A stretch of DNA of 33,680 bases, taken from the IMG/VR virus record IMGVR_UViG_2526164670_000016, positions 1-33,680 of that record; one strand, 5' to 3'. Origin of the DNA: a virus (Duplodnaviria > Heunggongvirae > Uroviricota > Caudoviricetes). Both the position numbers and the translations under genes were made by a program. The notes under the pieces were generated by a model. The model was given only the letters and a program-made list of their open reading frames with translations, did not search any database and was not told where the DNA came from. Positions 7,497 to 29,910 of this stretch are shown here, piece by piece (the stretch's first letter is position 1; every line of letters begins with the position of its first letter).

Positions 7497-7507
7497 AGGT
7501 TTTTCCT

Positions 7508-8107
7508 CTACTTCAAACTTGCGCTGTATGTTATTTGGGGCTGGTTATTCACATCGCCCAGGGTGGCAGGCCAGCAAATATATTCCCCCTGATACCAGCC
7601 AATATTGATATTCAGTGGCAGGGATGTGATCACTTCAAACTGGTAACGGCGGCATGTACGCCCATATTTACGGATGATTTCCAGCAGGAGATCGCCATTT
7701 TCCGCAATCTGGCTGTTTGTCACCCGAACAACAATCACGTCCCAGTCGAGTCCGTCCTGCCGCTCCAGCAATTCAACGTAACCAATCCCCAGTCGCTCAA
7801 AAATGGCAATAAAGCCCGCCACCTCTCCGGCCTGCTGCGCATTGATAAATGCGTAGCTCACCCGTTTGCGGAAGATGTCGAGCGGCTCCCCCTTAAACCG
7901 ATCGATATCGCGTTCCCAGGCAATCAGGTTTAACAGCGGTTCGGGGCAGACCAGCGGGTCAAACTGCTTTAACGGCCAGGAGATCCACCCGTACACCTGC
8001 GACCAGAACTTCACGCAGGCCCGCACCAGCCTGGCGGGGTCGCCTTTGTTCAGCCACGACGGCAATTTCAGACCGGCAAGCAACTTTGAAAACTCAGTCA
8101 TTCTCAA
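7508..8107 (-). CDS. Baseplate/tail protein (P2 gpI-like or Mu gp48/DUF2313-like), 199 aa
   Basis: Position between the J-like baseplate gene and the tail fibre gene; overlaps the J-like stop; size and position fit gpI/gp48-type proteins. Confidence 0.5.
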   Translation of the reverse strand: MRMTEFSKLLAGLKLPSWLNKGDPARLVRACVKFWSQVYGWISWPLKQFDPLVCPEPLLNLIAWERDIDRFKGEPLDIFRKRVSYAFINAQQAGEVAGFIAIFERLGIGYVELLERQDGLDWDVIVVRVTNSQIAENGDLLLEIIRKYGRTCRRYQFEVITSLPLNINIGWYQGEYICWPATLGDVNNQPQITYSASLK

Positions 8108-9278
8108 TCTCCACCGTTAACCCTGACAGGCGCGGGACCGACAGTTCGCTGACAATATCCGTCAGTGAAAAATGCAGTGAATCGACAACCGGAAAAGCTT
8201 TGTGGATCTCGCGGCCCAGATTCGAAAAGGAATAGCGCGAATAGGGCTGCGTCTTCTTAACGTCGTAATTGGCGTTCTCGCGAAACGCGCAACGAATCAG
8301 GTCGGTAATACCGGTTTTTAACGCGCTCAGGTCTTCCGCTTCCATGTTTTCCACGCTTTTGACGTATACCGTTACCGTCAGGGTGTGGCTGGTTTCCGGC
8401 ATGGTATAACACTGCAAATCATCACCGTGTCCGTGGTGGCCCTGGGTATTCACATAGTCGTTAACCGCATCAATAAAGGGTTGTGATATTTCGCCACTGT
8501 CCAGCAACAGGTAAGCATTTGCCGTACCCGGTCCCCGTGGGGCATCGTGCAAAAAGTAAATGCGATCAACGCTCAGGCCCAGCACGCTGGCAATCATGCT
8601 GCGGTAAATAGCGTCAGAGTGATAATTCCCCACCAGATTAAACTGGTTGCGGGTACGGTCGCGCAGCTCGTCGTCGCTTTCCTCGTTGGCTCCCGGCGTA
8701 ATCAGCCATTCGTCCTCATTGACCGCGCTGGCAATCCCGGCCACCGCAACGGGTAAAATCCGGTAATAGCCTGGCGCAAGGTTATAGCCGCTGCCGGTGC
8801 CGGTCGCCGTGACGGTAACCAGCCCGCTTTCAACCCCGGCAGGCAGCGTCACGTCTTCATTCACCGCCAGCACATAAACCACGCCGTTAATGCGCTCGGT
8901 TTGCACCAGTGTTCCGGCAGGCACGACGACCACATCCGCCGCGTTCAGCTTGTAGAACCGCAGCACGCCAGCGGCAGCGCTGGCCGGTTTAGGCACGATA
9001 TGAACCGCCCAGGCCAGCAGGCGCAGCATGGGACCGGTGGCCGTCGCAACAAACATATTGCGCAGGACCACATCGATCATCGCCGCCCGCAGCCATAACA
9101 CCGGCGTGGTGACAATCTTCGAAATCAGCCGCCAGAAAGGCGACATCCTCGACGTGTTTGTAACGAACCCTTCCGCCTGCACGGTGGCTTTAAACGCTGC
9201 CGTAATTTCGGCCTCTGTCGCGGGCATCCCGCTGTCATTCAGTACCTTTTCGAAATCAACGTCGGGTTTCTCAGTCAT
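8094..9278 (-). CDS. Baseplate J-like protein (P2 gpJ / Mu gp47 family), 394 aa
   Basis: Size and position immediately after the small W/gp46-like gene (ATGACTGA start/stop overlap). Confidence 0.65.
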   Translation of the reverse strand: MTEKPDVDFEKVLNDSGMPATEAEITAAFKATVQAEGFVTNTSRMSPFWRLISKIVTTPVLWLRAAMIDVVLRNMFVATATGPMLRLLAWAVHIVPKPASAAAGVLRFYKLNAADVVVVPAGTLVQTERINGVVYVLAVNEDVTLPAGVESGLVTVTATGTGSGYNLAPGYYRILPVAVAGIASAVNEDEWLITPGANEESDDELRDRTRNQFNLVGNYHSDAIYRSMIASVLGLSVDRIYFLHDAPRGPGTANAYLLLDSGEISQPFIDAVNDYVNTQGHHGHGDDLQCYTMPETSHTLTVTVYVKSVENMEAEDLSALKTGITDLIRCAFRENANYDVKKTQPYSRYSFSNLGREIHKAFPVVDSLHFSLTDIVSELSVPRLSGLTVEIEND

Positions 9279-9607
9279 AGTTAACCTCTGTACTGACAGG
9301 GCCGAAATCGTAGGTTTCCGCCGTGATATACAACCTCGAAAGGGTTTCTTCGGTGATCACTATGGTTCCTGGGACCAGACGTTCGTCGCTTTCCACCAGT
9401 AAGGACAGTTGTGTCAGCACGTCACCGCGCATTGTCGGGCTACGTTCACCGATCAGGCGGGTGGTGATACCGCTTTCCAGAATGCTGTGAATAATGTCCT
9501 GGGTGATGCTGTCGCGGTTATCGCAACGGCGCGGCTCGTTGCCCGCTGTCCAGCGTGAAATCGCCGTCAGTGATCAAAAGGTCGATGTATAACGGTTCGG
9601 TACTCAT
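9271..9607 (-). pseudogene. Small baseplate protein gene (gp46/W-like, about 111 aa) interrupted by a 1-nt frameshift
   Basis: ATG at 9607 overlaps the tape-measure stop (ATGA); frame 0 reads MSTEPLYIDLLITDGDFTLDSGQRAAPLR then stops; the +1 frame continues NEPRRCDNRDSITQDIIHSILESGITTRLIGERSP...TEVNYD and ends in a TGA overlapping the J-like ATG. One extra base near the GGGC run (about 9540) explains it. The track shows no ORF of 60 aa or more here. Confidence 0.5.
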
Positions 9608-11718
9608 CCTGCGTTAAGCTCCTGCCATTCAGCCAACTGGGCCGGGGTGATTCCATTGGGGGCGTTGATGTAGGTATCGCCCCACGTTTTACGGTTATCA
9701 ACAGCGGTTTTGCTGTCGCTTTTAACTTGACTCATCAGGCCGCCGCGTGGGATGCCTGCATTAATTCGGTTCCCCGTCAGCACGGACGGGCTGTTCAGCT
9801 TCGATGAACCTGCAGCACTGTCAGGAATGACCGCATTTGCCGGAACGGCAGCCGCTGCCGATGGCGAAACGGTTTTCAGGTCGATGTTGACGCCGGGGAT
9901 CTTGTTTAACTTCTCAACAATCCAGTTATAGGTAGACGCAAAGGTATTTTTGAGGACGTCAAAAAGTTTGCTGAATACCCCGCCGATGGTTTGTGCGAAC
10001 CCTTCAAAGGTGGCAAGCGGGGAAAGACCGGCAAAGAAATCAACCACCACGGCCCAGCCGTCTGTGATGGACTGCCAGACCTGCGCAAACACCTGGCCTA
10101 CCTGTTCAGCGACCGACATCACCCAGGCAAAAGCCGACGTATCCATGATTGCTGCTGCCAGTTCTTCCCAGTGGGTGATGACGTACCAGACCCCCACGGC
10201 CAGAAGTGCCAGCCCGGCAACGATCAGGGTGATCGGACTCATCAGGAGTTGCATTGCCGCCCCGGCAAACATGGTCGCCGCACCGTAAACCCGCATGGCA
10301 ATGGCTCCGGCCTTTAACGCGATATTCCATGCAGCAAGCGCGATGCGGCAGACGCCAGTCCACAGCGCCAGTAATTTTGACTGGATCCACAATGCAGCCA
10401 GACCGATGCGCGTCGTCAGCAGGGACAGACGCAACAGGTTTAGCGTCCATAACAGGAGTTTCCATGCCCCGCCCAGCACTTTTGCAATTGCGGCCAGCCC
10501 TGTCATGGTGAAGCCAAAGCCCCCCATCACGATATTGACCGCCGCCCCGGCCAGCCCGAAGGACAACACGCCCAGGGTGATGTAACCCAGCCAGCGGGCA
10601 ATATTCGGGAACATATCCAGCCAGCGGGCAAATTTTGTCCCCACGTCGGCAATACGGTTCATCAGCGGCGACAGGATAGGGATCAGCGTGTTACCAATCG
10701 CCACACGAATGGCAAAGAATGTCGCTTTGATACGTTCCCACGGCTCGGCCATTCGTTCGGCCATTTCCTGGGCGCGTTTCATCCCGTCATTTCGGCCCAG
10801 TTCGGTAATGCTGCGATTTAATTTATCCTGCTGGCCGTACAGCTTTTTGATAACGTCAGCGCCGCCACCGAATGCGGCGTCCAGCGCCTGTTGTGCCTTG
10901 ACGTTCCCTTCAATGCTCTGCCCGTATTTGCTCTGGAGTTTTTGCAGAATGTCACCCATCGGCAGCATTTTGCCGGTGGCATCGACAAAGCTCATACCCA
11001 GCTTTTCAGCGGCAGCCGGGGCGCTGCGTAAAAACTGCTCGTAGATCCCGCTGGCCTCAGTACCCAGCGTGCGCGAAAGTGTCCCCAGGACGACGAACTG
11101 TTCATCCAGGCTGACGCCAAAGTCAGCACCGGCGCTTTTCGTCCCCTCGATAAGCTCCTGCATGGTCTGCATTTTCACGCCAAAGTTTTGCACCATGTAC
11201 GCCGTTTTCCCTGCCAGCTCTTCGGCAAAACGCACATGGCCCAGACTGGACAGCTCCGCGTTGAAGCGTGACGCCATCGCGCCGATGTATTCGCCTGCCT
11301 CTTCGCCGCTGGCCTTGACGCCTGCGGCCAGGGTATTGGCCGCGATGGTAACGCGGGGCAGGTCCAGATCGGACAGGCCCGCCATTGCGCCTTTCATCGC
11401 GTAGCTTGACCGGACCACATCAACGGCCCCTTTGCCGTAGCGCATACTGAATCGCATGGCTTCGCCGGACAGACGCTTCAGCGCGTCCTCTGCCACGCCT
11501 TTGGAACCCACTTCTGCAAGCGCGGCGTTCATCTCATACGCCGGACCCACCACGCCCGCGATGGACTGCGCCACGCCCCAGACAGCAGCCGCACCGATCC
11601 CGATTTTTGTAAAAGACGCCTGCGATTTTTCGGCAAAGCCGGACAGCGAAGACTGGGCCGTCTTTAATGGCCGCGTCAGCTTATCGATCAGGCTCAGGGT
11701 AAAATCCAGGTGGCTCAT
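9604..11718 (-). CDS. Tail tape measure protein, 704 aa
   Basis: Largest ORF in the tail module; Ala/Gly-rich with a long hydrophobic central segment; preceded by a frameshifting chaperone gene pair. Confidence 0.8.
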   Translation of the reverse strand: MSHLDFTLSLIDKLTRPLKTAQSSLSGFAEKSQASFTKIGIGAAAVWGVAQSIAGVVGPAYEMNAALAEVGSKGVAEDALKRLSGEAMRFSMRYGKGAVDVVRSSYAMKGAMAGLSDLDLPRVTIAANTLAAGVKASGEEAGEYIGAMASRFNAELSSLGHVRFAEELAGKTAYMVQNFGVKMQTMQELIEGTKSAGADFGVSLDEQFVVLGTLSRTLGTEASGIYEQFLRSAPAAAEKLGMSFVDATGKMLPMGDILQKLQSKYGQSIEGNVKAQQALDAAFGGGADVIKKLYGQQDKLNRSITELGRNDGMKRAQEMAERMAEPWERIKATFFAIRVAIGNTLIPILSPLMNRIADVGTKFARWLDMFPNIARWLGYITLGVLSFGLAGAAVNIVMGGFGFTMTGLAAIAKVLGGAWKLLLWTLNLLRLSLLTTRIGLAALWIQSKLLALWTGVCRIALAAWNIALKAGAIAMRVYGAATMFAGAAMQLLMSPITLIVAGLALLAVGVWYVITHWEELAAAIMDTSAFAWVMSVAEQVGQVFAQVWQSITDGWAVVVDFFAGLSPLATFEGFAQTIGGVFSKLFDVLKNTFASTYNWIVEKLNKIPGVNIDLKTVSPSAAAAVPANAVIPDSAAGSSKLNSPSVLTGNRINAGIPRGGLMSQVKSDSKTAVDNRKTWGDTYINAPNGITPAQLAEWQELNAG

Positions 11719-19642: not shown

Positions 19643-21454
19643 ATGGCTAAATATTCCGATGAATTAAAAGAAGCGGCCCGCACGCTTTATATAAAAAGCT
19701 GGACGCCGAAAGATATTGCGCAGGAACTGAATATTCCACCGCGTACAATTTACCACTGGGCTGACGTCGGGAAGTGGGCATCACTGCAGCCTGTTGAATC
19801 GGTGGAAAATGTCATCGCCCGCCGTATCGACCAGCTCTCCCGCCGCGAGAAAAAAACAGCGCTGGAACTGGAAGAACTGCGCGATCTAATTGCTCACCAT
19901 GTGAAACTCATGGCGCAGCGCAACAAGCACGCCGAAAAGCTGGCAGAAATTCAGGCCCAGAAAACGGCTTATGATGGTGAAGGGTACTGCCTCAGCAGCG
20001 CAGGCGGGGAACCAGGGGAAAGAAAGCGCCGGTATAAGAAAAACGACGTTTCCGGTATTACAGCGGAAATGCTCGACACCTGGGCGCAGGAACATCTCTT
20101 CGAGTACCAGCTGCACTGCCGCGAACATAAAGGCGAAGACTGGCGCTTCATTCTGAAAAGCCGCCAGGTGGGTATGACCTATTATTTCGCCTGGGAAGCA
20201 TTCGAAGACGCCGTCATTACCGGTGACAACCAGGTCTTTTTCTCTGCAAGCCGATCCCAGTCGGAAATCTTCCGCGAATACATCGTCCAGATCGCCCAGA
20301 ACCATTTCGGCGTGACGCTGACGGGTAAAAATATCCGCCTCAGTAACGGCGCAATACTGCGCTTTTTGTCCACGAACGCCAGCACCGCGCAGGGCTTTAA
20401 CGGCCACCTGTATGGCGATGAGGTTTTCTGGATCCCGAAATTCACGCGCCTGCATGAAGTTGCCAGCGCAATGGCAACGCATAACAAATACCGCACGACC
20501 TACTTTTCGACGCCCAGCGCGAAAACGCACCAGGCTTACCCGGTCTGGACTGGCGAAGCCTGGCGCGGGGACGACCCGAAACGCAAAGGTGTGAAGTTCC
20601 CGAACGAAAGCGAAATGTGCCAGGGCATTCTTTGCCCGGACCAGATCTGGCGCTACATCATCACGATGGAAGACGCTATCGAAGGCGGCCTCGGGGCGCT
20701 TGTCGATATTGAACGGCTGCGCAACAAATACAGCCCGACCGCGTTCGCCATGCTCTACATGTGCCAGTTTGTTGACAGTAAGGACGCGGTTTTCAAGTTC
20801 TCCGCGCTTGTCGGCTGTGAAGTGGACCGGGCCACATGGGGCGACTTTGATCTGACCGCTACGCGGCCTTTCGGCAATCGCGAAGTATGGGCAGGTTTTG
20901 ACCCGTCGCGCTCCGGCGACAACTCAACATTTGTGTTAATCGCGCCCCCTATAGAGGACGGCGAGCGCTTCCGCGTGCTGGCCGTCTGGCAATGGCAGGG
21001 TTTTAACTTCAGCTGGCAGGCCGACCAGATAAAGCAGCTTATGCGCCGCTTTAACATCACTTACATCGGGATCGATACAACCGGCATAGGTAAAGGCGTT
21101 TATGACCTTGTCAGCAAATTTGCGCCACGCGAAGCCACACCAATTCTTTACAGCGTCGAAAGCAAAAACCGCCTGGTGATGAAGATGATCGACGTTGTCG
21201 AGCGTAAGCGCATCGAATGGGCAAAAGACGCCGTAGACGAAACGAACAAGGAGCGCGTCGAAATTCCGGCCAGCTTTATGGCTATCCGGCGCACGACAAC
21301 CAACAGCGGCAATGCGCTGACGTTTGTTGCCGAACGTTCAGACGCGACCGGCCATGCAGATGTTTTCTTCGCTATCTCGCACGCCGTAATTAACGAACCT
21401 ATCGATCACGAATATGACCGCCCATCGGGCTGGTACTTTGGGAAAGCAGCATGA
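19643..21454 (+). CDS. P: Terminase ATPase (large) subunit (P2 gpP family), 603 aa
   Basis: Length and P2-like position, divergent from O and followed by the portal gene with an ATGA overlap. Confidence 0.85.
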   Translation: MAKYSDELKEAARTLYIKSWTPKDIAQELNIPPRTIYHWADVGKWASLQPVESVENVIARRIDQLSRREKKTALELEELRDLIAHHVKLMAQRNKHAEKLAEIQAQKTAYDGEGYCLSSAGGEPGERKRRYKKNDVSGITAEMLDTWAQEHLFEYQLHCREHKGEDWRFILKSRQVGMTYYFAWEAFEDAVITGDNQVFFSASRSQSEIFREYIVQIAQNHFGVTLTGKNIRLSNGAILRFLSTNASTAQGFNGHLYGDEVFWIPKFTRLHEVASAMATHNKYRTTYFSTPSAKTHQAYPVWTGEAWRGDDPKRKGVKFPNESEMCQGILCPDQIWRYIITMEDAIEGGLGALVDIERLRNKYSPTAFAMLYMCQFVDSKDAVFKFSALVGCEVDRATWGDFDLTATRPFGNREVWAGFDPSRSGDNSTFVLIAPPIEDGERFRVLAVWQWQGFNFSWQADQIKQLMRRFNITYIGIDTTGIGKGVYDLVSKFAPREATPILYSVESKNRLVMKMIDVVERKRIEWAKDAVDETNKERVEIPASFMAIRRTTTNSGNALTFVAERSDATGHADVFFAISHAVINEPIDHEYDRPSGWYFGKAA

Positions 21455-22512
21455 CAAAGAAACAGCGTAAAAATAAAAAATTCGGGTCCATGACCGGCAG
21501 CCGGGTTGAAACCTTCACGCCAGGGCGCGGAAGCGTGATCACATTTGGCGAACCAGAACCCATCCTGACGACCGGCACGGATTATCACAATATCTGGTAT
21601 GACAATGAGTATGACCACTGGCGACTTCCGATTGATCGCCTGGCGCTGGCCCAGTTGCCGAACCTTAACGGCCAGCATGGTGGTGTACTGTATGCGCGGC
21701 GCAATATGGTGGCCGGTGGCTACATCGGCGGCGGCCTGACGCCTGACCAGGTCGAACAGGCTGTCTTTGATTACCTGCTGTTTGGTGACGTTGCTATCCT
21801 GAAAATTCGTAACGTATTCGGGGAAGTGATCGACCTGCTGCCGCTGCCGTCGCTGTATCTTCGCTGCCGAAAAGACGGGTCGTTTGCTGTTTTGCAGGAA
21901 GGGCCAGCACTTATCTATGACCCGGAAGACATCGTCTTTTTTAAAATGTACGACCCGCGCCAGCAGGTGTATGGCCTGCCTGACTATATTGGCGGCATCC
22001 ATTCGGTGTTACTCAACAGTGAGGCAACCATCTTCCGACGCCGTTACTACAACAACGGGGCGCACATGGGCTTTATTCTCTATACCAGCGATCCGAATCT
22101 TACTCTGGAAATGGAAAACGAAATCAAAGAGAAGATCGCCCAGTCCAAAGGGCTGGGTAACTTCCGAAATATGTTTATCAACATCCCGAAGGGCGACCCG
22201 GAAGGGGTTAAAATCCTGCCGGTGGGCGAAGTCAGCGCAAAGGACGAATTTGCCAACATCAAAGGGATCACCGCACAGGATATCTTTACCGCTCACCGTT
22301 TCCCCGCTGGCCTGGCGGGTATCATCCCGACCAACGGCGCGGTAATGGGCAACCCTGAAACCGCCCGCACAACCTATCGCAAGGATGAAGTTATCCCCTT
22401 GCAGCGCAAGCTAATGAACGGCGTCAACAATGACCCGGAGATCCCCGCACACTTGCACCTGGTTTTTGACGTGGATATCCCGGCAATTACCACCGAAAAG
22501 GGCGAAAAATGA
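21451..22512 (+). CDS. Q: Portal protein (P2 gpQ family), 353 aa
   Basis: Size and position after the large terminase gene, with translational coupling. Confidence 0.85.
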   Translation: MTKKQRKNKKFGSMTGSRVETFTPGRGSVITFGEPEPILTTGTDYHNIWYDNEYDHWRLPIDRLALAQLPNLNGQHGGVLYARRNMVAGGYIGGGLTPDQVEQAVFDYLLFGDVAILKIRNVFGEVIDLLPLPSLYLRCRKDGSFAVLQEGPALIYDPEDIVFFKMYDPRQQVYGLPDYIGGIHSVLLNSEATIFRRRYYNNGAHMGFILYTSDPNLTLEMENEIKEKIAQSKGLGNFRNMFINIPKGDPEGVKILPVGEVSAKDEFANIKGITAQDIFTAHRFPAGLAGIIPTNGAVMGNPETARTTYRKDEVIPLQRKLMNGVNNDPEIPAHLHLVFDVDIPAITTEKGEK

Positions 22513-22568
22513 ACGCAGTTAAGTTAAAATCATCCCCACTGTTAGCAATGGCGTGCGGGATGGTGAAC

Positions 22569-22835
22569 ATGCGAGTTTTTAAAATTAAATGTCCTGAATG
22601 CGGCTCACCGGCCATCATTCGTAAATCTGACTGGAAAGACAAAAAACTGGCTGATTTATACTGCGCCTGCACGGAAGTTGAATGCGGCCACACCTTTGTT
22701 TTTAACGCCCAGTTTTCACATACCCTCAGCCCCAGCGGGCTGACCGGCAACAAGCTGGTTAAATTCCTGATTGACCGACTCAAGCCGGAAGAACGGCAAT
22801 TCGCGCTGGACCTGCTCAACGGCCAGACGGCATAA
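22569..22835 (+). CDS. ogr: Ogr/Delta-family zinc-finger late-gene transcriptional activator, 88 aa
   Basis: MRVFKIKCPECGSPAIIRK...YCACTEVECGH gives a C-x2-C-x22-C-x4-C motif as in P2 Ogr; ATG at 22569 with GGGATGG upstream (track ORF starts earlier at 22509). Confidence 0.75.
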   Translation: MRVFKIKCPECGSPAIIRKSDWKDKKLADLYCACTEVECGHTFVFNAQFSHTLSPSGLTGNKLVKFLIDRLKPEERQFALDLLNGQTA

Positions 22836-22837
22836 AC

Positions 22838-22869
22838 GAAGCCCGCATAAAGCGGGCTTCTTTTCATTT
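22838..22869 (+). terminator. Rho-independent terminator after ogr
   Basis: GAAGCCCGC-ATAAA-GCGGGCTTC hairpin followed by TTTTCATTT, starting 3 nt after the ogr stop. Confidence 0.65.
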
Positions 22870-22943
22870 AGAGTGATGTAATGTTATCCGCTATTTTGTT
22901 ACATTCATGGTGGATTTTGCCCTAATATCTGAGGAAAGAAGAT

Positions 22944-24299
22944 ATGCGAATGACCGCTCCAACCAAATCCTTTACTGATGGATTTTGTGAGAATGATGAT
23001 ATTTTTGAAAGAAAAAAACTCCACGATATCATTATGCGGGTTGCCACTAACGCCCCTGATAAAAGTTTAGTTTTAGCATTAGATGATAAATGGGGTAATG
23101 GGAAAACTTCATTTGTAAAAATGATGGAGTCAGAGATAAACAAAAACCACTCCGACGATTTCGAAGTCATCTATTTTGATGCTTTTAAAAGTGATTATCA
23201 GTCTGATCCATTTGTGGCATTAACTTCTAGCATATATTCTCTTATAAACAAAAGTGATGGAAAGTTAAAAACGCTATGTAAGGAACTGTTAGACATTGGA
23301 AAAAAACTTGGTGCCTCATTTGCTATAAATGGTGCGAAGTTTGCAATCAGTACACTTTCAGGTGGGTTACTATCTGGAACCGTTTTTGATAAGGCTACAG
23401 ACACAATAACTGACTCTATCTCTTCGCCCGTAGAGGAATATATAGAAAGCAAAATAAAAAATAGTGAAAGTGAAATCGCGATTATTGAGCGGTTTGGTGA
23501 TTTATTAACTAAAATTTGTGAACAAAGTGGTAAGAAAATATTTTTTATAATCGATGAGCTTGATCGTGCCCGCCCTGACTTTTCATTAGACTTATTAGAG
23601 AAAATAAAACATATATTTTCGGTTAAAGGTGTTATTTTCCTGTTGGTTGTTAATCGTGAACAATTTGAAAAAAGCATTGAATGTCGATATGGCAATATTA
23701 ACGCAAGGCTGTACCTTAATAAATTTGTCCATTACTGGTTTAGTCTTCCGAAGAGAAGCTATCTTTCTGAGGATTGTTTAAATAGATTTAAGCACTCCAC
23801 TATAAAACAATACCTTCTCACTATAGATAATGGTAATAATTTCTTCGTTCGCAATGGCTCCCTTGTAAATACGCTGGCGTATTTGTTAGAAGTCAATGGT
23901 TGTTCACTACGAGAGGCTGAGCGTTGTTACTCTGTGTTTGCAGTTATTGCAAATCCGAATAAAATAAACGAGTACAGTACCGATGCTTATAAAGTTGCAA
24001 TGGGACTAGTTGCATTTCTGAAAGTTCATAACCCTCAAATTCTATCTGATATCATATATAAGCGATATGAATTAAAAGAAATTCTACCAAAGCTATCAAT
24101 CAAAAGAGAACATTTAGAATATATCTCGGAGGTCTACTTACTTGATCACTTACTACAGTACCACTACAAATCAGATGAAGAATTAAAAAACCCTGAGAAC
24201 CAAAATCAATTTTCTGACTTACAAGGTTATTTTGGTCGAAGAGCCCCTGTTTTAGAAATGATGTTTGAAACAGTTGAAGGGTTTAATATTAGTTATTAA
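22944..24299 (+). CDS. KAP-family P-loop NTPase (PifA-like), 451 aa; candidate phage-exclusion protein
   Basis: Walker A WGNGKTS (aa 50-56) and Walker B IFFIIDELDRARPD (about aa 200) in the KAP style, with a hydrophobic insert between them (ASFAINGAKFAISTLSGGLLSGTVF); low-GC gene with its own RBS (GAGGAAAG) in the cargo island. Confidence 0.6.
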   Translation: MRMTAPTKSFTDGFCENDDIFERKKLHDIIMRVATNAPDKSLVLALDDKWGNGKTSFVKMMESEINKNHSDDFEVIYFDAFKSDYQSDPFVALTSSIYSLINKSDGKLKTLCKELLDIGKKLGASFAINGAKFAISTLSGGLLSGTVFDKATDTITDSISSPVEEYIESKIKNSESEIAIIERFGDLLTKICEQSGKKIFFIIDELDRARPDFSLDLLEKIKHIFSVKGVIFLLVVNREQFEKSIECRYGNINARLYLNKFVHYWFSLPKRSYLSEDCLNRFKHSTIKQYLLTIDNGNNFFVRNGSLVNTLAYLLEVNGCSLREAERCYSVFAVIANPNKINEYSTDAYKVAMGLVAFLKVHNPQILSDIIYKRYELKEILPKLSIKREHLEYISEVYLLDHLLQYHYKSDEELKNPENQNQFSDLQGYFGRRAPVLEMMFETVEGFNISY

Positions 24300-24346
24300 A
24301 CCGTAAAAACATTATTTGCAGGCTCTTTGCCGCCCGCACCCGCAGA

Positions 24347-24389
24347 ATCCTGCAGGCCGACGCAAACAGTTGCGACGTCCTGCAGGATT
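24347..24389. repeat. GC-rich inverted repeat (AATCCTGCAGG ... CCTGCAGGATT with a partly palindromic 22-nt centre)
   Basis: Perfect 11-bp arms at 24347-24357 and 24379-24389 between the convergent KAP gene and the 24394-25104 ORF. Confidence 0.5.
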
Positions 24390-24393
24390 GCAT

Positions 24394-25050
24394 TCATTCT
24401 TTTGGGGGGCGACCTTCTGCACCCGCCAGCATTTTTTGATACTCCCCGACCGGATCAAACCGCAGACGCGTGGCATCTATGCCGTGGTTTTCCCGCAGAC
24501 GTTCCCATAATTTATTCACCATCCGTGACTCGTCGGGTAATTGACGCGTTATCAACTGGCCGCCAGCACTGGCCCGATAAACTTTTCCGCCAATCTCCAG
24601 ACGGCTCCCCATTAACAGCGAAACGGCCTGAATCTCTGAAATCTCAACCGAACACAACACCGCATCTGCCAGCAGACTGGCAACCGCAGGGGCAAGCGCT
24701 GCCTGCCTAGCTTTTTCAGCCTCCGATCTGGCCTCGGTTTTTTCAACGGCAGAACGCCAGGCGACATCTAATTCGCTTCCTGGCTCATAAGGTGATCCGC
24801 TTTGCCGCCTTTTGAATGGTGTTTCACGTAGTCGCCGCATCAATTTGCGCCGCGTTGGCTGGTCCATATCTTCAAAATCGACGATTTCATCGTCTGAATC
24901 TTCTGTCGTTAACTCTCCGTCAGCTGGCACAGCCATTTCTGACATTGAAAAATCGGTGATTTTTTCGTCTTCCGTAGAGTTATTGACAGAACTCGAACTC
25001 AAACACTCTGTACATTTTTGTGCAGTATAAAAAGTCTTCATGTTGATCAT
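24394..25050 (-). CDS. Hypothetical protein, acidic N-terminal region; start uncertain (ATG at 25050 or 25041; track ORF starts at a GTG at 25104)
   Basis: Single open frame across a GC-rich segment that contrasts with the AT-rich flanking cargo genes; no strong RBS; no family recognised. Confidence 0.3.
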   Translation of the reverse strand: MINMKTFYTAQKCTECLSSSSVNNSTEDEKITDFSMSEMAVPADGELTTEDSDDEIVDFEDMDQPTRRKLMRRLRETPFKRRQSGSPYEPGSELDVAWRSAVEKTEARSEAEKARQAALAPAVASLLADAVLCSVEISEIQAVSLLMGSRLEIGGKVYRASAGGQLITRQLPDESRMVNKLWERLRENHGIDATRLRFDPVGEYQKMLAGAEGRPPKE

Positions 25051-25118
25051 CAGTGCATAGACTTTTATGATTAGTTCAAAATGGCATTGTGCAGTATGCT
25101 CCACAACGGGTGAGACTT

Positions 25119-25682
25119 ATGAACATTCAAACCGAGACAATTTTTAGCATTGGGCATGGTGCTCGCAGGCTAGAAGAATTTATAGCTTTGTTGAAAAAAT
25201 ATCATATCAGATATGTTATAGACGTTCGTTCAAAACCCAGATCTAGGTTTCACCCACATTTTAATCGTGAAGCTTTGACTCTTCATTTGAAAGAAGCAGG
25301 CATTCGATACGTATTCATGGGAGAACAATTAGGTGGTATTCCTAAAGATGATCAATGTTACGATGAAGACGGACGGGTTGATTACGAAAAAATAAAAAAC
25401 AAAGCTTTTTTCCATGAGGGAATTGAGAGAATAAAAACGGCTCATTCAAAAAATTTAAAAATTGCATGTATGTGTAGCGAGCTATCCCCTTGCGATTGCC
25501 ATAGAAGTAAATTAATTGGTGATTACTTGCAATCACTCGGGATAGAAATGCAGCATATAGATAAGAAAGGAGATATTAGTTCACAAAATGACGTAATGAA
25601 GGAAGTGCTCGGCTCAAACGGTGAATTGGACCTATTTTCGGACAACACCAAAAAATTAAAATCAAGAAAATCGTATCGTTGA
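25119..25682 (+). CDS. DUF488-like protein, 187 aa
   Basis: N-terminal IFSIGHGARRLEEFIALLKK...VIDVRSKPRSRFHPHFNRE and later CMCSE..PCDCHR match what I recall as the DUF488 signature; ATG at 25119 with GGTGAG upstream (track ORF starts at a GTG at 25089); low GC. Confidence 0.55.
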   Translation: MNIQTETIFSIGHGARRLEEFIALLKKYHIRYVIDVRSKPRSRFHPHFNREALTLHLKEAGIRYVFMGEQLGGIPKDDQCYDEDGRVDYEKIKNKAFFHEGIERIKTAHSKNLKIACMCSELSPCDCHRSKLIGDYLQSLGIEMQHIDKKGDISSQNDVMKEVLGSNGELDLFSDNTKKLKSRKSYR

Positions 25683-25697
25683 ATAAAGGGTATTGAG

Positions 25698-26309
25698 ATG
25701 AATACTGATGTAATAATTCTTTCCAGAACAAAAATGTCTGGAGATAAAATTTGCGTAGGTGGATTAGATCTTAATAGTGGGAAGATGTTAAGATTATTGG
25801 ATAATAGAGCAAGTGCTTTGACTTCAGCTTATCCATATAGTATTGGCGAAACATACTCAATAGAGTTTGCTGAAAGGTATCAAGTAGCAGCCCCACATGT
25901 TGAAGATGTAGCTGTTTATGACTACAGCTTAGCGAAAAGTTTTAATAAAGTAGATCTAGATACTATCGTCCATAAACACTCTGGTACATATAACAATCTT
26001 AGTGAACTCTTCTCTGGAAAACTTCACTGGCAAAACTCCAAGGGATATGCTTTGGAGTCAGACCCTCCGGAATTTAGCGTTCAAATAGCAAAAATTAATA
26101 AAATCCTAGTTAGAAATGGAACTGACTTTCAAGAGTTCGGCTCACTCAATCCGCGCAAAGTTAAATATGTTGGCGAACTTGATATAAATAGACTCCCTAG
26201 TAGAATAAATCCTGGCACACCTATTAGATTTTCTTTAGCTCGACCTTGGGATAAGGATAATAATGGTATTAAAGTGTGTTATTTACAACTATCTGGAGTT
26301 TACATTTAA
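25698..26309 (+). CDS. Hypothetical protein, 203 aa, co-operonic partner of the DUF488-like gene
   Basis: ATG 15 bp after the DUF488 stop with AAAGGG..GAG upstream; AT-rich; no family recognised. Confidence 0.5.
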   Translation: MNTDVIILSRTKMSGDKICVGGLDLNSGKMLRLLDNRASALTSAYPYSIGETYSIEFAERYQVAAPHVEDVAVYDYSLAKSFNKVDLDTIVHKHSGTYNNLSELFSGKLHWQNSKGYALESDPPEFSVQIAKINKILVRNGTDFQEFGSLNPRKVKYVGELDINRLPSRINPGTPIRFSLARPWDKDNNGIKVCYLQLSGVYI

Positions 26310-26428
26310 AAATTATTTAATATTAGAATAACGCGCTCAGCATTAACTTATTTTATAAAATGCAGAGCGCCTTATGAAATATAACTATTCAAACCTTTCG
26401 TTGAATCAATATCATTTATATTCGAAAA

Positions 26429-28927
26429 TTACTCTATCGCCTTTCTCCAGCGACTGAGCAACTCATCAACTCTATGCCTTGCCAGCGTTTTACGCCAGTT
26501 CATATCCGCACCGGTCACAATCAACTCCCCTGTAATTTGGTTGGCACGGTAAGTAGTATCAAGCGCAGTCACTTCTCTCCCTTGTACCAGCTTTAGCACT
26601 TGCACAGGTGTGATTTGGATCTTTCTTAACTTCGCCCAATCCAGTACCTGAGCAACTAGGGCTGTAACGTTCTTATCTACTACGCTTTCTTCCTGGCGGA
26701 GCGCATACGCGGCTTTTAAATAGCTTTCCGCTCTAGCTCGGTTATATTCGGTGCACTCACCCACAGTGATACTGTACGCAAGTGACTCAAACTCATCTGC
26801 TGCTGAAACACGCTGCGTTTGTTTGTGGATTTTCAGGCCTTCAGCAATCTCTTTTTTCTGTTCCCACCTTAATTTGCCGATTTCAAATTGCTCTGGAGAT
26901 TCATCCCTAGTCGGCAAAGTCAGATCTGGCCGATAAACAACCTGGCAATCTGTTTGTTTTTTGTACTCAGTACAGTTATTGACACGAGTCCTAGAGGGCG
27001 CAGACGCGCCCTTAAGGTCAACAGCAAGGTCAACGGCCTTGCCTGAATCGTTAATAATCTCCGGTTTCTTACGCACAATCCGATAAGAATGTAGGCGGGT
27101 TTCAACTGGCGGCATGAAGATGTGAGGCATCACCAGTCCTTTAATTAAGGTCTGGTATTCACCGTGATCGTTTGGCTGGTCTTTTTGTTGATACCAGATG
27201 CGCAGTGGCAGATCACAACGGGCAACCAACGCCCCACCCTGCAATTGGGTGTATTGCTGCCAGTCGCCAGCATCCGCTGCACGGTGCAGCTCGGCAAACA
27301 ACGGGTTAATCTGGTCTGCCTTTTCCTGATTGCGGAATCGACGTAGCTCGCGCCAGACTGAAACAGGCGCACCACCAAGGAACTGGAATTGACGAATACC
27401 CCAGCATGATGCCCAGGCCGTCGCATGTTTTGAGGTTTCTTTTAATGGTCTGCCGTTCTCGTCATCTGTTTCACCGTCGAGCGCGTAACCATCAATATTC
27501 TTGCTGATATACTTCACCACATAACCGGTGGCGCTTCCGATTTCATGATCGATAGGCTTCATTTCGAAACGTGGACGAATGCCATGCTTACCCTGCAATT
27601 CGTCCTCATCCTCGCGGGTGGCGTAGTCCTTCATCACTTCCAACAATTCAGCTGAATGTTCTGGTAAGGAAAACAGAAGACCATGCCAGTGTGGCGTTCC
27701 GTCGTGGTGAGATTCAGCCACGCGAAGCCCAAACACCTGAATATCGCGGCGGGCCAACTCAGCGCGGATCTGTTGCCAGACTCGATTAAGATAACGTTGC
27801 GTGGTTCTTGGACTGGCCCCGTTCCATTTGCCATTACGATGACCGAAGACGGTATAGGCATGATATTTGGAAGGTGCTGTCATGGTGAAAAACTGCCCTG
27901 CATAGCCACTTTCGGTAGCGACTTTCTCGAAGCCACCGATGCGAGTCATAAGCTCAACGCGGCGCAAAGCTGGGTTAGATATGCTCTTATCTATTTGCTC
28001 AATGAGTGAAATGCGTTCTTTGGTTTCCTGATCTTCCAGCTCAAGCCTGGCCATAATCGCCCGGCTGCGTTTCCGCCTAGTGTCCCACTCTTCAACATGA
28101 TGCTTACTGCAATATGGCGCAGCGCCTCGCTTCACATCACCAAAAGCGATGTGCAGATGTTCACGCCAGCGCGTGCCGTACTTTTTAAGATTTCGGTGCC
28201 AGTAGCGATCATCCAGCATCTTGCTGATACCGGTCGTCGCCTCATCAATAAACAATTTACCCCGGCAATACTTTTCCCAGTTCGGTGGCGTTAGAAAGAA
28301 AAGACGCGCAAGTTGTGCCGCCTCGGTGTAAAGGTATTCGGCATACCGGCGATCACTTTGCGTCTCTACCGTTTCGTGTACCTCGCTCAGCACCGACCGC
28401 ATATAGATCGCAATATCCTGCGCTAATAGTTCAACATCTTCCGGCGTGTAGTCCGGCAGCCTGTTGAATCTCTCAACTAAACCGTTAAGGGTATCAAATA
28501 CATGGTAAAGCGGGTTTAACTTTTTGAATGCTGTTTCAGCTTGTGATTTTGCGTCTTCGGTCATCGCAATTGCGTATTGAGCATTCACCATATTGATGGG
28601 CGGCAGCTCTCTGCGGATGATGTCTCTTACTGCCTGACGGGCAATATGTCGGCCCTTCATCGTGTGAATACTGTCAATGCGAGAAGCCAAGCGCAGGCGT
28701 ATAAAGCGAGGAAGTCTCGAAAGGGTAAGTTTCACCCACGACAAAAACTCTTGTTCTTGACCCAATTCGAATAGATCAACAACAGGAGTCTTATCAACAT
28801 AAATAGCTGCATTAGGCTTTTGCCACTCGTAATCGTAATTGATATCAGCAGCAGAATTAGACATACCCCTGCCGCCAACTAACTGGCGGCGATTGTTACT
28901 CGGCCGAACAAACGCGGAGTCTGTCAC
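26429..28927 (-). CDS. A: Replication initiation endonuclease (P2 gpA-like rolling-circle initiator), 832 aa from the GTG at 28927
   Basis: HUH motif (DGTPHWHGLLF) and catalytic tyrosine motif (GYVVKYISKNIDGYALDG) as I recall from P2 gpA; GTGA overlap with the Dam stop, alternative ATG at 28864. Confidence 0.85.
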   Translation of the reverse strand: MTDSAFVRPSNNRRQLVGGRGMSNSAADINYDYEWQKPNAAIYVDKTPVVDLFELGQEQEFLSWVKLTLSRLPRFIRLRLASRIDSIHTMKGRHIARQAVRDIIRRELPPINMVNAQYAIAMTEDAKSQAETAFKKLNPLYHVFDTLNGLVERFNRLPDYTPEDVELLAQDIAIYMRSVLSEVHETVETQSDRRYAEYLYTEAAQLARLFFLTPPNWEKYCRGKLFIDEATTGISKMLDDRYWHRNLKKYGTRWREHLHIAFGDVKRGAAPYCSKHHVEEWDTRRKRSRAIMARLELEDQETKERISLIEQIDKSISNPALRRVELMTRIGGFEKVATESGYAGQFFTMTAPSKYHAYTVFGHRNGKWNGASPRTTQRYLNRVWQQIRAELARRDIQVFGLRVAESHHDGTPHWHGLLFSLPEHSAELLEVMKDYATREDEDELQGKHGIRPRFEMKPIDHEIGSATGYVVKYISKNIDGYALDGETDDENGRPLKETSKHATAWASCWGIRQFQFLGGAPVSVWRELRRFRNQEKADQINPLFAELHRAADAGDWQQYTQLQGGALVARCDLPLRIWYQQKDQPNDHGEYQTLIKGLVMPHIFMPPVETRLHSYRIVRKKPEIINDSGKAVDLAVDLKGASAPSRTRVNNCTEYKKQTDCQVVYRPDLTLPTRDESPEQFEIGKLRWEQKKEIAEGLKIHKQTQRVSAADEFESLAYSITVGECTEYNRARAESYLKAAYALRQEESVVDKNVTALVAQVLDWAKLRKIQITPVQVLKLVQGREVTALDTTYRANQITGELIVTGADMNWRKTLARHRVDELLSRWRKAIE

Positions 28928-29910
28928 CGCTCAGACTCCACGCCACATGTCGCAGCCGTTGCCAGCATTTCGTTATAGGTCGCGTTACCCATTACAGGGC
29001 CACAATCAGGGCAACCACCACCACCGGCACGACCACAGCCGCTACACAATTTGAGGACGCCGATCACTTCACTGGCGGCCCCTCGGGTAATGGCGTTCGC
29101 GCTAACAGAACGGTTAACGCTGATTTCCTGGAAGTTGAAACAGCGATAAATCTCGCGGGTGACTGGGGTGTCGCTATTGGACAGGATCACCGGCGAACCA
29201 GTAAGGCGGTTAATATCCAGCAGGACGGCAGCTAACTGGCGATGTTCTTTAATGCCAAACGGGGCTGTGTGATATTGGGTGAAATTAGCTGTTTCGCTTG
29301 TTGGCAGGTATGGCGGATCGCAGTAGATAACCGCGTCACTACCAATCATGATTTTTAACGTGCTCTGGAAATCGCAGCACACGAAAATGGCTTTCGTGTC
29401 GTTAGCTTTTTCAGAGAATAAACGGATCTGTTCTTCCGGGAAGTAAGGCGGGGTTTTGTGACGCCCAAAGGGAACGTTATATCCACCCTGTTGGTTGTAG
29501 CGTACTACGCCGTTATATCCGTGACGGTTCAGGTAAAGAAATTGTGCTGCACGAAGAATCTTGCCCGCGTCCGGCCCATCTTCAAACACACTGCGCAATG
29601 ACAGTAGGTCACGTGCGCGGGCGTTGAAATCATCGCGGATCCATTTATAGCCGTCTTTATCGCCGTACACTTTAAACAGTGGGCGAGCAGCGTCGATCAC
29701 CGCATCAGGCCAGCGGGTTATCTGGCGATACAGGTTAATTAAATCTGGGTTGATATCACCCAGGATATAACGGCGATATTCAGTATTGAGGAAAACAGAA
29801 GCACCGCCGACAAACGGTTCCACCAGGCAATCGGCTTTCGGCAGAATCGGCAGCAAATCAGGCATAACGCGGCCTTTACCACCGGGCCATTTAACGAGAG
29901 ATCGAATCAT
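28924..29910 (-). CDS. DNA adenine methyltransferase, Dam-like, with a Cys-rich C-terminal extension, 328 aa
   Basis: WPGGKGRV...EPFVGGASVF (SAM-binding) and IYCDPPY (catalytic DPPY) closely resemble E. coli Dam from memory; extra tail CSGCGRAGGGGCPDCGP; GGAG RBS before the ATG at 29910. Confidence 0.85.
   Translation of the reverse strand: MIRSLVKWPGGKGRVMPDLLPILPKADCLVEPFVGGASVFLNTEYRRYILGDINPDLINLYRQITRWPDAVIDAARPLFKVYGDKDGYKWIRDDFNARARDLLSLRSVFEDGPDAGKILRAAQFLYLNRHGYNGVVRYNQQGGYNVPFGRHKTPPYFPEEQIRLFSEKANDTKAIFVCCDFQSTLKIMIGSDAVIYCDPPYLPTSETANFTQYHTAPFGIKEHRQLAAVLLDINRLTGSPVILSNSDTPVTREIYRCFNFQEISVNRSVSANAITRGAASEVIGVLKLCSGCGRAGGGGCPDCGPVMGNATYNEMLATAATCGVESER

What the first reader, a model, noticed from the sequence alone, without database searches (positions are those of the whole stretch)
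25119..26309. Two-gene operon: DUF488-like protein plus unrecognised 203-aa partner, a candidate undescribed defence system
The two AT-rich genes are 15 bp apart on the same strand, each with an RBS. The first carries what I recognise as DUF488 motifs (GH..R...DVR..P.SR; C.CSE...C.CHR) with a C-terminal extension. The second matches nothing I can name. Their location in the hotspot and tight pairing suggest a two-component anti-phage or toxin-like module, and I do not know a characterised defence system of this composition.
Basis: partly seen in the sequence, partly recalled or inferred. Interest (0 to 1): 0.8.

Follow-up and report, generated by a model that had tools for sequence, protein, structure and literature searches.

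The report
DUF488–DuOB prophage hotspot gene pair
Two tightly linked genes in the variable "defence hotspot" of a P2-like prophage encode a cysteine-phosphatase-fold enzyme (DUF488) and a double OB-fold nucleic-acid-binding protein (DuOB); the pair is conserved across distant bacteria and had been catalogued but, as far as I could find, never tested, so it is a good but not undiscovered candidate anti-phage system.

Summary
Two AT-rich genes lie on the + strand 15 bp apart: 25119-25682 (187 aa) and 25698-26309 (203 aa). They sit between the portal gene gpQ and the replication gene gpA of a P2-like prophage.

- **Gene 1** is a clear DUF488 (83 bits) with all conserved putative catalytic residues and a cysteine-phosphatase-like fold.
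- **Gene 2** is not unrecognisable. It matches Pfam PF22557 "DuOB" (dual OB), and a confident model (pLDDT 96) resembles RecO, RPA, SSB and telomere-end binders.
- **Linkage.** In all 30 related loci examined (about 16 independent contexts, Proteobacteria to Chloroflexota), DuOB lies directly downstream of one or two DUF488 genes. This includes forms where DuOB is fused to RecQ, a RecD/PIF1-like helicase or Hsp70. Both genes are under purifying selection.
- **Prior record.** "Undescribed" is not correct. The cassette is entry #162 "DUF488" in Table S5B of Rousset et al. 2022 (203/203 and 186/187 residues identical, 11 E. coli occurrences, no function noted). Its DUF488 is PADLOC candidate PDC-M45B. 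I found no experimental test.
- **Best reading (inferred).** It is a minimal two-gene conflict module: DuOB recognises ssDNA or DNA ends, and DUF488 modifies terminal phosphate groups.

The parts
22513..26428 (.). Variable hotspot between portal gpQ (21451-22512) and replication endonuclease gpA (26429-28927) of the P2-like prophage. It holds an Ogr/Delta-like gene, a KAP NTPase, a gpA fragment, DUF488 and DuOB.
   Evidence: PHROG assignments for portal and gpA. The hotspot is defined by Rousset et al. 2022. A related E. coli prophage carries a different cargo at the same place.
25043..25071 (+). Sigma-70-like promoter candidate (TTGATC-17-TATGAT) 48 bp upstream of the DUF488 start. It would allow expression independent of the oppositely oriented gpA (early) operon.
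   Evidence: The match is 9 of 12 and the number of such sites in the region is not above the shuffled expectation, so this is weak evidence.
25119..25682 (+). DUF488 gene (187 aa): a cysteine-phosphatase/rhodanese-like Rossmannoid enzyme with a conserved C-terminal tail (LF-x-SRKxY).
25683..25697 (+). 15-bp intergenic spacer carrying an SD-like AAGGG for the second gene.
   Evidence: Sequence read. Homologous loci have gaps of 8-45 bp or overlapping stop and start codons.
25698..26309 (+). DuOB gene (203 aa): two OB-fold barrels. Predicted to be the nucleic-acid (ssDNA or DNA-end) recognition subunit.
26333..26370 (.). Stable hairpin in the 119-bp gap between the convergent DuOB and gpA genes. 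Possibly a terminator, although it lacks a canonical T-tract.
   Evidence: Folding energy is -18 kcal/mol with z=-3.4 against shuffles. The simple terminator scan did not call it.
24394..25104 (-). ORF resembling the C-terminal part of a different gpA allele. It travels with the pair in Enterobacteriaceae and was counted as part of the system by Rousset et al. It is probably a recombination relic rather than a core component.
   Evidence: Matches phrog_6857 positions 601-775 and phrog_91 positions 632-778. It is only 23% identical to the resident gpA and 82% identical to the ORF beside the pair in C. freundii. It is absent from the Klebsiella prophages and all other taxa. Omega is 0.40.

Best explanation
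This is the minimal two-gene form of a conserved DUF488-DuOB module. It is carried as an independently transcribed 'moron' in the gpA-gpQ defence hotspot of a P2-like prophage, and it most likely serves inter-virus or host-virus conflict (superinfection exclusion or anti-phage defence).

Proposed mechanism:
- DuOB, a double OB-fold protein, recognises single-stranded DNA or DNA termini of an invading or replicating element.
- It presents them to DUF488, a metal-independent cysteine-phosphatase-fold enzyme that removes or transfers a terminal phosphate or phospho-sugar group.
- The ends then become unfit for ligation, circularisation, priming or packaging.

Shown here: the gene structure, the family and fold assignments, intact conserved putative catalytic residues, obligate gene linkage across phyla, helicase-fused variants, purifying selection, and the hotspot or defence-island location.

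Inferred, not shown: physical interaction of the two proteins, a nucleic-acid-end substrate, and any anti-phage phenotype.
For: 1. Location. The pair lies between portal and gpA of a P2-like prophage. That locus is shown experimentally to hold anti-phage systems (PMC9122126). A 93%-identical DUF488 plus DuOB sits in the same hotspot of Klebsiella P2-like prophages in a different arrangement.
2. Linkage. DuOB lies directly downstream of DUF488 in all 30 loci examined, about 16 independent contexts. Gaps are short or the genes overlap.
3. Neighbours. These include nSTAND3/Mrr (PDC-S73), KAP NTPase (PDC-S20), MzaE/AbiU-like AIPR with a cytosine methyltransferase and Vsr, EVE with a helicase, HNH, PDC-M18A, integrases and IS elements.
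6. Selection. Omega is 0.04 for DUF488 and 0.11 for DuOB, and DuOB diverges faster (74% against 92.5% amino-acid identity), as expected of a recognition subunit.
7. Horizontal origin. GC is 35-36% against 51% for the window, and the distribution is patchy.
8. PADLOC independently lists DUF488 proteins as defence candidates PDC-M45B/C and M19A.
Against: - No phenotype is known. Rousset et al. listed the cassette without comment, and it is not among their validated systems.
- Some contexts have no defence or mobile-element neighbours: next to valS in Moraxellaceae, and among transport or metabolic genes in P. oryzihabitans and L016.
- DuOB matches no PADLOC model.
- The canonical CX5R phosphatase loop is not present; the spacing is C119-x9-R129.
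- The invariant DuOB residues (C, H, E, D, R, S) are not a typical ssDNA-binding signature. DuOB may therefore be an enzyme or ligand sensor itself.
- The substrate is pure inference.
- The promoter call is no better than chance.
Confidence: 0.5

Rival explanations
1. The pair is a counter-defence or nucleic-acid repair accessory that benefits the phage. DUF488 with DuOB would heal or reverse damage or modification on ssDNA or RNA ends. Examples are 3'-phosphate or cyclic-phosphate ends left by host nucleases, or ADP-ribose-derived adducts. It would not attack competitors.
For: A related rhodanese-phosphatase clade (DUF4326) is predicted to process ADP-ribose-derived phosphates in phages (PMC9503650). 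A PHROG family (phrog_14939) contains a C-terminal DUF488 domain. Several chromosomal contexts look like housekeeping genes. RecQ, RecO-like and SRAP neighbours or analogues are repair-flavoured.
Against: The pair is absent from 50,697 GenBank phage records, from IMG/VR and from BFVD, so it is not a typical lytic-phage gene. It occupies a locus dominated by defence cargo and sits beside defence candidates in several genomes. It is transcribed convergently to gpA and the early operon rather than as part of it.
Confidence: 0.15
2. The pair is a toxin-antitoxin or addiction-type module. One product is toxic and the other neutralises it, stabilising the prophage or island without a dedicated antiviral role.
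For: Many hotspot cargos are toxin-antitoxin-like (Table S5B lists DarTG and PemK).
Against: Both proteins are about 200 aa and are conserved with enzyme-like or binder-like invariant sites. Three-gene and helicase-fused versions exist, which is unlike classical toxin-antitoxin pairs. No family search (Pfam, PADLOC, NCBIfam, PHROGs) returned a toxin or antitoxin family for either protein.
Confidence: 0.1
3. The functional unit is three genes, as delimited by Rousset et al. (#162): the gpA-C-terminal-like ORF (24394-25104, minus strand) plus DUF488 plus DuOB. The gpA-like piece would act as a sensor or decoy for the replication proteins of competing P2-like phages.
For: The ORF is intact, is divergently adjacent (14 bp between the ORF and the DUF488 start), and co-occurs with the pair in E. 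coli and C. freundii.
Against: It is absent from the Klebsiella P2-like prophages that carry the pair, and from every other taxon. It diverges far more than the pair (84.5% against 99% nucleotide identity; omega 0.40). DNA homology with C. freundii breaks inside the ORF at 24515. It is best read as a relic of cassette exchange by recombination in the gpA 3' end.
Confidence: 0.08
4. The pair is housekeeping DNA or RNA metabolism (for example base-excision-repair end cleaning) that merely hitch-hikes in the hotspot.
For: DUF488 is a broad family with chromosomal members (from my own knowledge, E. coli YeaO). Some loci are flanked by core genes such as valS, fpg and relA.
Against: The DuOB family is small and patchy: 1,073 representatives at 50% identity among 1.84 billion proteins, and only 2 of about 100,000 species genomes were hit by the close-family patterns. 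The genes are AT-rich and foreign in composition, and several loci are flanked by integrases or IS elements.
Confidence: 0.07

Closest known systems
Rousset et al. 2022 (Cell Host Microbe; PMC9122126), P2 gpA-gpQ hotspot, Table S5B system #162 'DUF488'
   Same: It is the same cassette. DuOB is 203/203 identical, DUF488 186/187 and the gpA-like ORF 217/218. The hotspot arrangement is the same as the one listed for E. coli NZ_RCAJ01000037 (KAP_NTPase + Ogr_Delta + DUF488 + hypotheticals).
   Different: The published entry is only a catalogue line (11 occurrences) with no predicted function and no test. It counts three genes, whereas cross-taxon comparison here shows a two-gene core.
PADLOC-DB v2 candidate system PDC-M45 (components A, B, C)
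   Same: The window's DUF488 matches PDC-M45B at E=1e-54. The second DUF488 paralogue of three-gene relatives matches PDC-M45C.
   Different: The window has no C-type paralogue. No DuOB protein hits any PADLOC model, and the identity of PDC-M45A is unknown. PADLOC would therefore not call this locus as a system.
DUF488 / DUF488-N3a / DuOB operons of the rhodanese-phosphatase superfamily (Burroughs & Aravind 2023, NAR Genom Bioinform lqad029; recalled from memory, paper not held)
   Same: The domain families and gene order are the same. As I recall its abstract, that work predicts DNA-end processing in virus-host conflict for enzymes of the RapZ-C/DUF488/DUF4326 clade. The fold evidence here (PTP plus diphthine-synthase-like hits) fits that classification.
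   Different: The window carries only one DUF488 gene and no helicase (the minimal form). I could not verify what the paper says about DuOB.
TOTE (TPR, OB, TBP, Effector) conflict systems (Aravind et al. 2022, as cited in PMC12458937)
   Same: An OB-type nucleic-acid sensor is coupled to an effector. One DuOB relative is fused to a helicase and a TBP-TOTE domain.
   Different: The window has no TPR, TBP or helicase component.
DprA + PRTase system validated in the same P2 hotspot (Rousset et al. 2022)
   Same: It is two-gene cargo of the same locus. Its authors propose that the ssDNA-binding protein DprA senses phage DNA and activates the PRTase effector.
   Different: The protein families are unrelated. 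That system has a demonstrated phenotype against T7 and lambda; this one has none.
PTP-fold polynucleotide 5'-phosphatases (baculovirus BVP 1yn9, PIR1 4mbb) and glucan phosphatases (laforin, SEX4)
   Different: Sequence identity is 5-16%. DUF488 lacks the CX5R spacing and has additional invariant residues (second Cys, His, Glu).

Membership tests
Pfam DUF488 (PF04343) | Profile HMM score above the gathering threshold | tested here: met
   83 bits against a cut-off of 22.2, residues 18-132
Pfam DUF488 (PF04343) | Conserved motif residues (D-x-R...P-x-S; C-x-E...C-H-R) | tested here: met
   D35, R37, P40, S42, C119, E121, C127, H128 and R129 are invariant in 69 homologues and are retained in the window protein
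Rhodanese / Cys-phosphatase superfamily | Rossmannoid fold with a nucleophilic Cys at the strand end followed by a helix | tested here: met
Canonical PTP/DSP phosphatases | C-X5-R(S/T) P-loop signature | tested here: not met
   The sequence is C119-SELSPCD-C127-H-R129, that is C-x9-R. The protein is therefore not filed as a PTP/DSP, only as fold-related
Pfam DuOB (PF22557) | Profile HMM score above the gathering threshold over the full length | tested here: met
   33.1 bits against a cut-off of 27, residues 5-201 of 203. Most homologues carry a precomputed PF22557 assignment
Pfam DuOB (PF22557) | Two OB-fold barrels | tested here: met
DUF488-DuOB operon family | DuOB gene immediately downstream of, and co-directional with, a long-form DUF488 gene | tested here: met
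   True in the window and in 30 of 30 related loci
PADLOC PDC-M45 | B component present | tested here: met
   PDLC04657 at E=1.2e-54
PADLOC PDC-M45 | C component (second DUF488 paralogue) present | tested here: not met
   Only one DUF488 ORF lies in the hotspot. The three-gene relatives do have a second one
PADLOC PDC-M45 | A component present | tested here: inconclusive
   No ORF of the locus and no DuOB homologue hits a PDC-M45A model. What A is could not be learned
P2 gpA-gpQ hotspot cargo (Rousset 2022 system #162) | Located between gpA and gpQ of a P2-like prophage, with sequence identity to the listed proteins | tested here: met
TOTE conflict systems | TPR-CSD and TBP components with an effector | tested here: not met
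   Pfam scans of the annotated hotspot ORFs show Ogr_Delta, KAP_NTPase, DUF488 and DuOB only
Validated anti-phage defence system | Protection phenotype on expression | not testable with these tools
   No experimental report was found
Toxin-antitoxin module | Toxicity of one component, neutralised by the other | not testable with these tools
   Requires expression experiments

The most novel reading that the evidence does not exclude
The pair would be a new kind of innate immunity that acts on the chemistry of DNA ends. DuOB would capture the single-stranded cohesive (cos) or other termini of incoming phage DNA. DUF488 would strip or transfer their terminal phosphate through a cysteinyl intermediate. 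The genome could then not be ligated or circularised, or its replication intermediates could not be sealed. This would be a nuclease-free, NTP-free exclusion mechanism carried next to the prophage's own cos site. A more radical variant is that DuOB, with its invariant C/H/E/D/R/S pocket, is itself a new OB-fold enzyme.
Probability: 0.15. Interest if true: 0.85.

Novelty: new variant of a known kind. Interest (0 to 1): 0.55.

Why it matters
Neither DUF488 nor DuOB has a solved structure detectable by sequence or, as far as I could find, a demonstrated biochemical activity. The pair nonetheless recurs from E. coli prophages to Chloroflexota, and elaborated forms recruit RecQ, RecD-like and UvrD-like helicases. 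Showing a phenotype would have three consequences:

- It would turn a line in a supplementary table into a validated defence family.
- It would give the large DUF488 family its first function.
- It could reveal immunity based on modifying nucleic-acid termini rather than on cleavage, NAD depletion or membrane damage.

The two-gene E. coli form is about 1.2 kb, sits in a lab-tractable host background and is easy to test.

Tried and rejected
- **DNA and protein searches with no result.** Megablast and blastn of the pair against 5,426 complete E. coli genomes found nothing. The published occurrences I could trace are in draft assemblies (for example NZ_RCAJ01000037). Megablast and tblastn against GenBank phages found nothing. 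Plasmids gave one weak Rhodothermus hit.
- **Pattern scans.** The full DuOB alignment (A1) was too diverse for the pattern scan of species genomes. The narrower alignment A3 found only 2 loci there. IMG/VR gave none.
- **Structure searches.** Sequence searches of the PDB with both family profiles found nothing. BFVD fold search gave nothing at E<=0.001, only weak LEF-3-like OB hits. The afdb50 library was unavailable.
- **Literature.** All 31 papers holding a term beginning 'DUF488' were listed and none reports a defence test. 'DuOB', 'PDC-M45' and 'dual OB' + phage gave nothing relevant, and one 'dual OB' search was swamped by 'dual objective'. Burroughs & Aravind 2023 could not be opened by DOI, PMC id or PubMed id, so its content is cited from memory only.

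Full report
**1. Observation**

The window is a P2-like prophage read in reverse relative to the P2 map.
- Capsid and scaffold genes are on the minus strand. Terminase is at 19643-21454 and portal gpQ at 21451-22512 on the plus strand.
- The 832-aa replication endonuclease gpA is at 26429-28927 on the minus strand. It is followed by Dam methylase, cox, the C repressor and integrase.
- Between gpQ and gpA lie five genes: an Ogr/Delta-like zinc-finger gene (22509-22835), a KAP-family NTPase (22944-24299), a minus-strand ORF (24394-25104), and the two genes of the finding.

The two genes are exactly as described.
- Gene 1 is 25119-25682 (187 aa) and gene 2 is 25698-26309 (203 aa). They are on the same strand with a 15-bp gap, and both have SD-like sequences upstream.
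- They are 36% and 35% GC, against 51% for the window.
Pfam DUF488 scores 83 bits against a cut-off of 22.2.
The only correction is that the partner is recognisable: it matches Pfam PF22557, 'DuOB, dual OB-containing domain', at 33.1 bits against a cut-off of 27.

**2. What the proteins are**

DUF488:
- An alignment of 69 homologues leaves D35, R37, P40, S42, Y64, G72, C119, E121, C127, H128, R129 and H146 invariant.
- The AlphaFold model is confident (pLDDT 92.7).
- This is the mixture expected for the rhodanese-phosphatase superfamily. That placement is my recollection of Burroughs & Aravind 2023, which I could not open.
- The canonical CX5R loop is not present (C119-x9-R129), so I file it as fold-related, not as a PTP.
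- The 55-residue C-terminal extension ends in a conserved LF-x-SRKxY tail. This tail is specific to DUF488 genes that precede DuOB.

DuOB:
- The model has pLDDT 96.1 and is all-beta with two barrels.
- No PDB sequence relative exists for either family.
- The invariant DuOB residues are C19, G21, R32, P66-H67-x-E69-D70, S127, G159, R177, S179 and S199. They look more like a ligand or catalytic pocket than a plain ssDNA surface. This remains unexplained.

**3. Is the pairing real?**

Yes. Every DuOB homologue whose context I could read lies directly downstream of a long-form DUF488 gene.
- **Two-gene form.** Found in Pseudomonas oryzihabitans, P. aeruginosa (an integrase/IS island), P. baetica, Marinobacter, Moraxella atlantae, Citrobacter freundii and Klebsiella P2-like prophages.
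- **Three-gene form.** DUF488, then a divergent DUF488-N3a paralogue that keeps the same motif residues, then DuOB. Found in Acinetobacter pittii, Sphingomonas, a Chloroflexota MAG and locus L016.
- An HMM scan of all fetched loci confirmed the order in 26 of 26.
- **Family size.** An exhaustive profile search finds only 1,073 representatives at 50% identity among 1.84 billion proteins, mostly stand-alone proteins of about 200 aa.
- **Fusions.** The rare long members fuse DuOB to RecQ, to a RecD/PIF1-like helicase plus a TBP-TOTE domain, or to Hsp70. In all three fusion types (four further loci, L027-L030) the upstream DUF488 gene or genes are still there, giving 30 loci in all, and a UvrD-like helicase follows the Hsp70 form. 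These fusions tie the module to DNA transactions.
- **Selection.** Against the Klebsiella prophage copies both genes are under purifying selection (omega 0.04 and 0.11). DuOB diverges faster, at 74% against 92.5% amino-acid identity, as expected for a recognition subunit.

**4. Context**

- Rousset et al. 2022 showed that the cos-proximal gpA-gpQ region of E. coli P2-like prophages is a hotspot. It has 1,650 arrangements and holds old, tin and several newly validated anti-phage systems.
- A close E. coli relative of this prophage carries a single 925-aa protein at the same place.
- Klebsiella P2-like prophages carry the DUF488-DuOB pair in the same hotspot but with different neighbours.
- Elsewhere the module sits beside nSTAND3/Mrr (PADLOC PDC-S73), MzaE/AbiU-like AIPR with a cytosine methylase and Vsr, EVE with a helicase, HNH nucleases, PDC-M18A, and integrases or IS elements.
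- Some contexts look purely chromosomal, such as next to valS or among transport genes.

**5. Prior art**

- Table S5B of Rousset et al. lists system #162 'DUF488', seen 11 times, with three protein sequences. These are 217/218, 186/187 and 203/203 identical to the minus-strand ORF, DUF488 and DuOB of this window.
- Table S5A lists the same arrangement as the window for E. coli NZ_RCAJ01000037.
- The entry has no functional comment and is not among the systems that paper reports as validated. The only places DUF488 or the protein accessions appear in the held supplementary files are Tables S5A and S5B.
- PADLOC v2 has the DUF488 protein as candidate PDC-M45B (E=1e-54) and the second paralogue as PDC-M45C. 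No DuOB protein hits any PADLOC model, so the locus would not be called as a system automatically.
- I found no experimental study.
- So 'candidate defence system' stands, 'undescribed' does not, and 'uncharacterised' does.

**6. The neighbouring minus-strand ORF**

- ORF 24394-25104 matches the C-terminal third of gpA-type replication proteins (phrog_6857 positions 601-775). It is only 23% identical to the resident gpA.
- It accompanies the pair in E. coli and in C. freundii CP056850. There, DNA homology spans window 24515-26583, including a remnant of the gpA 3' end, in an island with no intact prophage.
- It is missing from the Klebsiella prophages and from all other taxa. It is far more diverged (84.5% nucleotide identity, omega 0.40) than the pair (about 99%, omega 0.05-0.16).
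- I read it as a scar of cassette exchange by recombination within the gpA 3' end, not as a component.

**7. Mechanism**

Shown:
- a cysteine-phosphatase-fold enzyme with intact conserved residues;
- a double-OB protein with an ssDNA/DNA-end-binder fold;
- obligate operonic linkage;
- recruitment of DNA helicases in larger variants;
- a location among conflict genes.

Inferred:
- DuOB targets ssDNA or DNA termini and DUF488 alters a terminal phosphate or phospho-sugar group.
- For a prophage sitting next to its own cos site, an appealing specific version is removal of the 5'-phosphate from cohesive ends of superinfecting cos phages, which would block ligation and circularisation.
- I give the general reading (a conflict module acting on nucleic-acid ends) about 0.5 and the specific cos-end version about 0.15.

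Rivals:
- a phage-beneficial repair or counter-defence function (0.15);
- a toxin-antitoxin or addiction module (0.10);
- a three-gene unit including the gpA fragment (0.08);
- hitch-hiking housekeeping repair genes (0.07).

**8. Verdict**

This is a real, conserved and experimentally untouched module in a proven defence hotspot. It has been catalogued before, and its DUF488 component is flagged as a defence candidate by PADLOC. It is best described as the minimal two-gene variant of the DUF488-(DUF488)-DuOB(-helicase) family. Interest is moderate to high for experiment (0.55). It is not a discovery of something unseen.

Noticed in passing
window 22944-24299 (+): A KAP-family P-loop NTPase (451 aa, 34% GC) sits in the same hotspot. 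It matches PADLOC single-gene candidate PDC-S20 (E=7e-70) and phrog_8614, with weaker matches to QatA and PifA. It is a second untested defence candidate beside the pair.
   Followed up: partly
window 24394-25104 (-): An intact ORF resembles the C-terminal third of a different gpA allele (phrog_6857 positions 601-775) and is only 23% identical to the resident gpA. It travels with the pair in E. coli and C. freundii only. It is probably a relic of cassette exchange within the gpA 3' end. From my own knowledge, the P2 ori lies inside the A gene, so the fragment might carry a foreign ori.
   Followed up: partly
window 24346-24389: A GC-rich 20-nt inverted repeat (90% complementary, 4-nt loop) lies between the KAP NTPase gene and the gpA-like ORF. 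It may be a bidirectional terminator or a recombination or cos-related site.
   Followed up: no
window 22509-22835 (+): An Ogr/Delta-like zinc-finger gene overlaps the portal stop codon (Pfam E=3e-17). The same gene follows the portal in a related E. coli prophage (L031), whose hotspot holds one 925-aa hypothetical protein instead.
   Followed up: partly
window ~26400-29050: The gpA allele has no megablast match in 5,426 complete E. coli genomes or in GenBank phages. The adjoining Dam-to-integrase region is 96% identical to many E. coli prophages. There is therefore a mosaic joint near the gpA/Dam boundary.
   Followed up: partly
L010 (C. freundii CP056850) 6507-10917: The pair, the gpA-like ORF and a gpA 3'-end remnant lie beside an nSTAND3/Mrr protein (PADLOC PDC-S73) near clpA/clpS, with no intact prophage. 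A decayed P2-type hotspot appears to have been retained as a chromosomal defence islet.
   Followed up: partly
L004 (Acinetobacter pittii) and L025/L026 (Moraxella atlantae): The three-gene form (Acinetobacter) and the two-gene form (Moraxella) are both adjacent to valS. This suggests in-situ loss of the second DUF488 paralogue, or a shared insertion site.
   Followed up: no
P0228, P0344, P0234/P0252 (loci L027-L030): DuOB is fused N-terminally to a RecD/PIF1-like helicase with TBP-TOTE (the helicase part matches PADLOC PDC-M16A), to a full RecQ, or to Hsp70. Each is still preceded by DUF488 genes.
   Followed up: yes
window 26333-26370: A stable hairpin (-18 kcal/mol, z=-3.4) lies between the convergent DuOB and gpA genes. 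It lacks a T-tract, so it is not a canonical intrinsic terminator.
   Followed up: partly
DuOB protein (window 25698-26309): The invariant residues C19, R32, H67, E69, D70, S127, R177, S179 and S199 form an enzyme-like or ligand-pocket-like set rather than an aromatic/basic ssDNA surface. They could not be mapped in 3D here.
   Followed up: no
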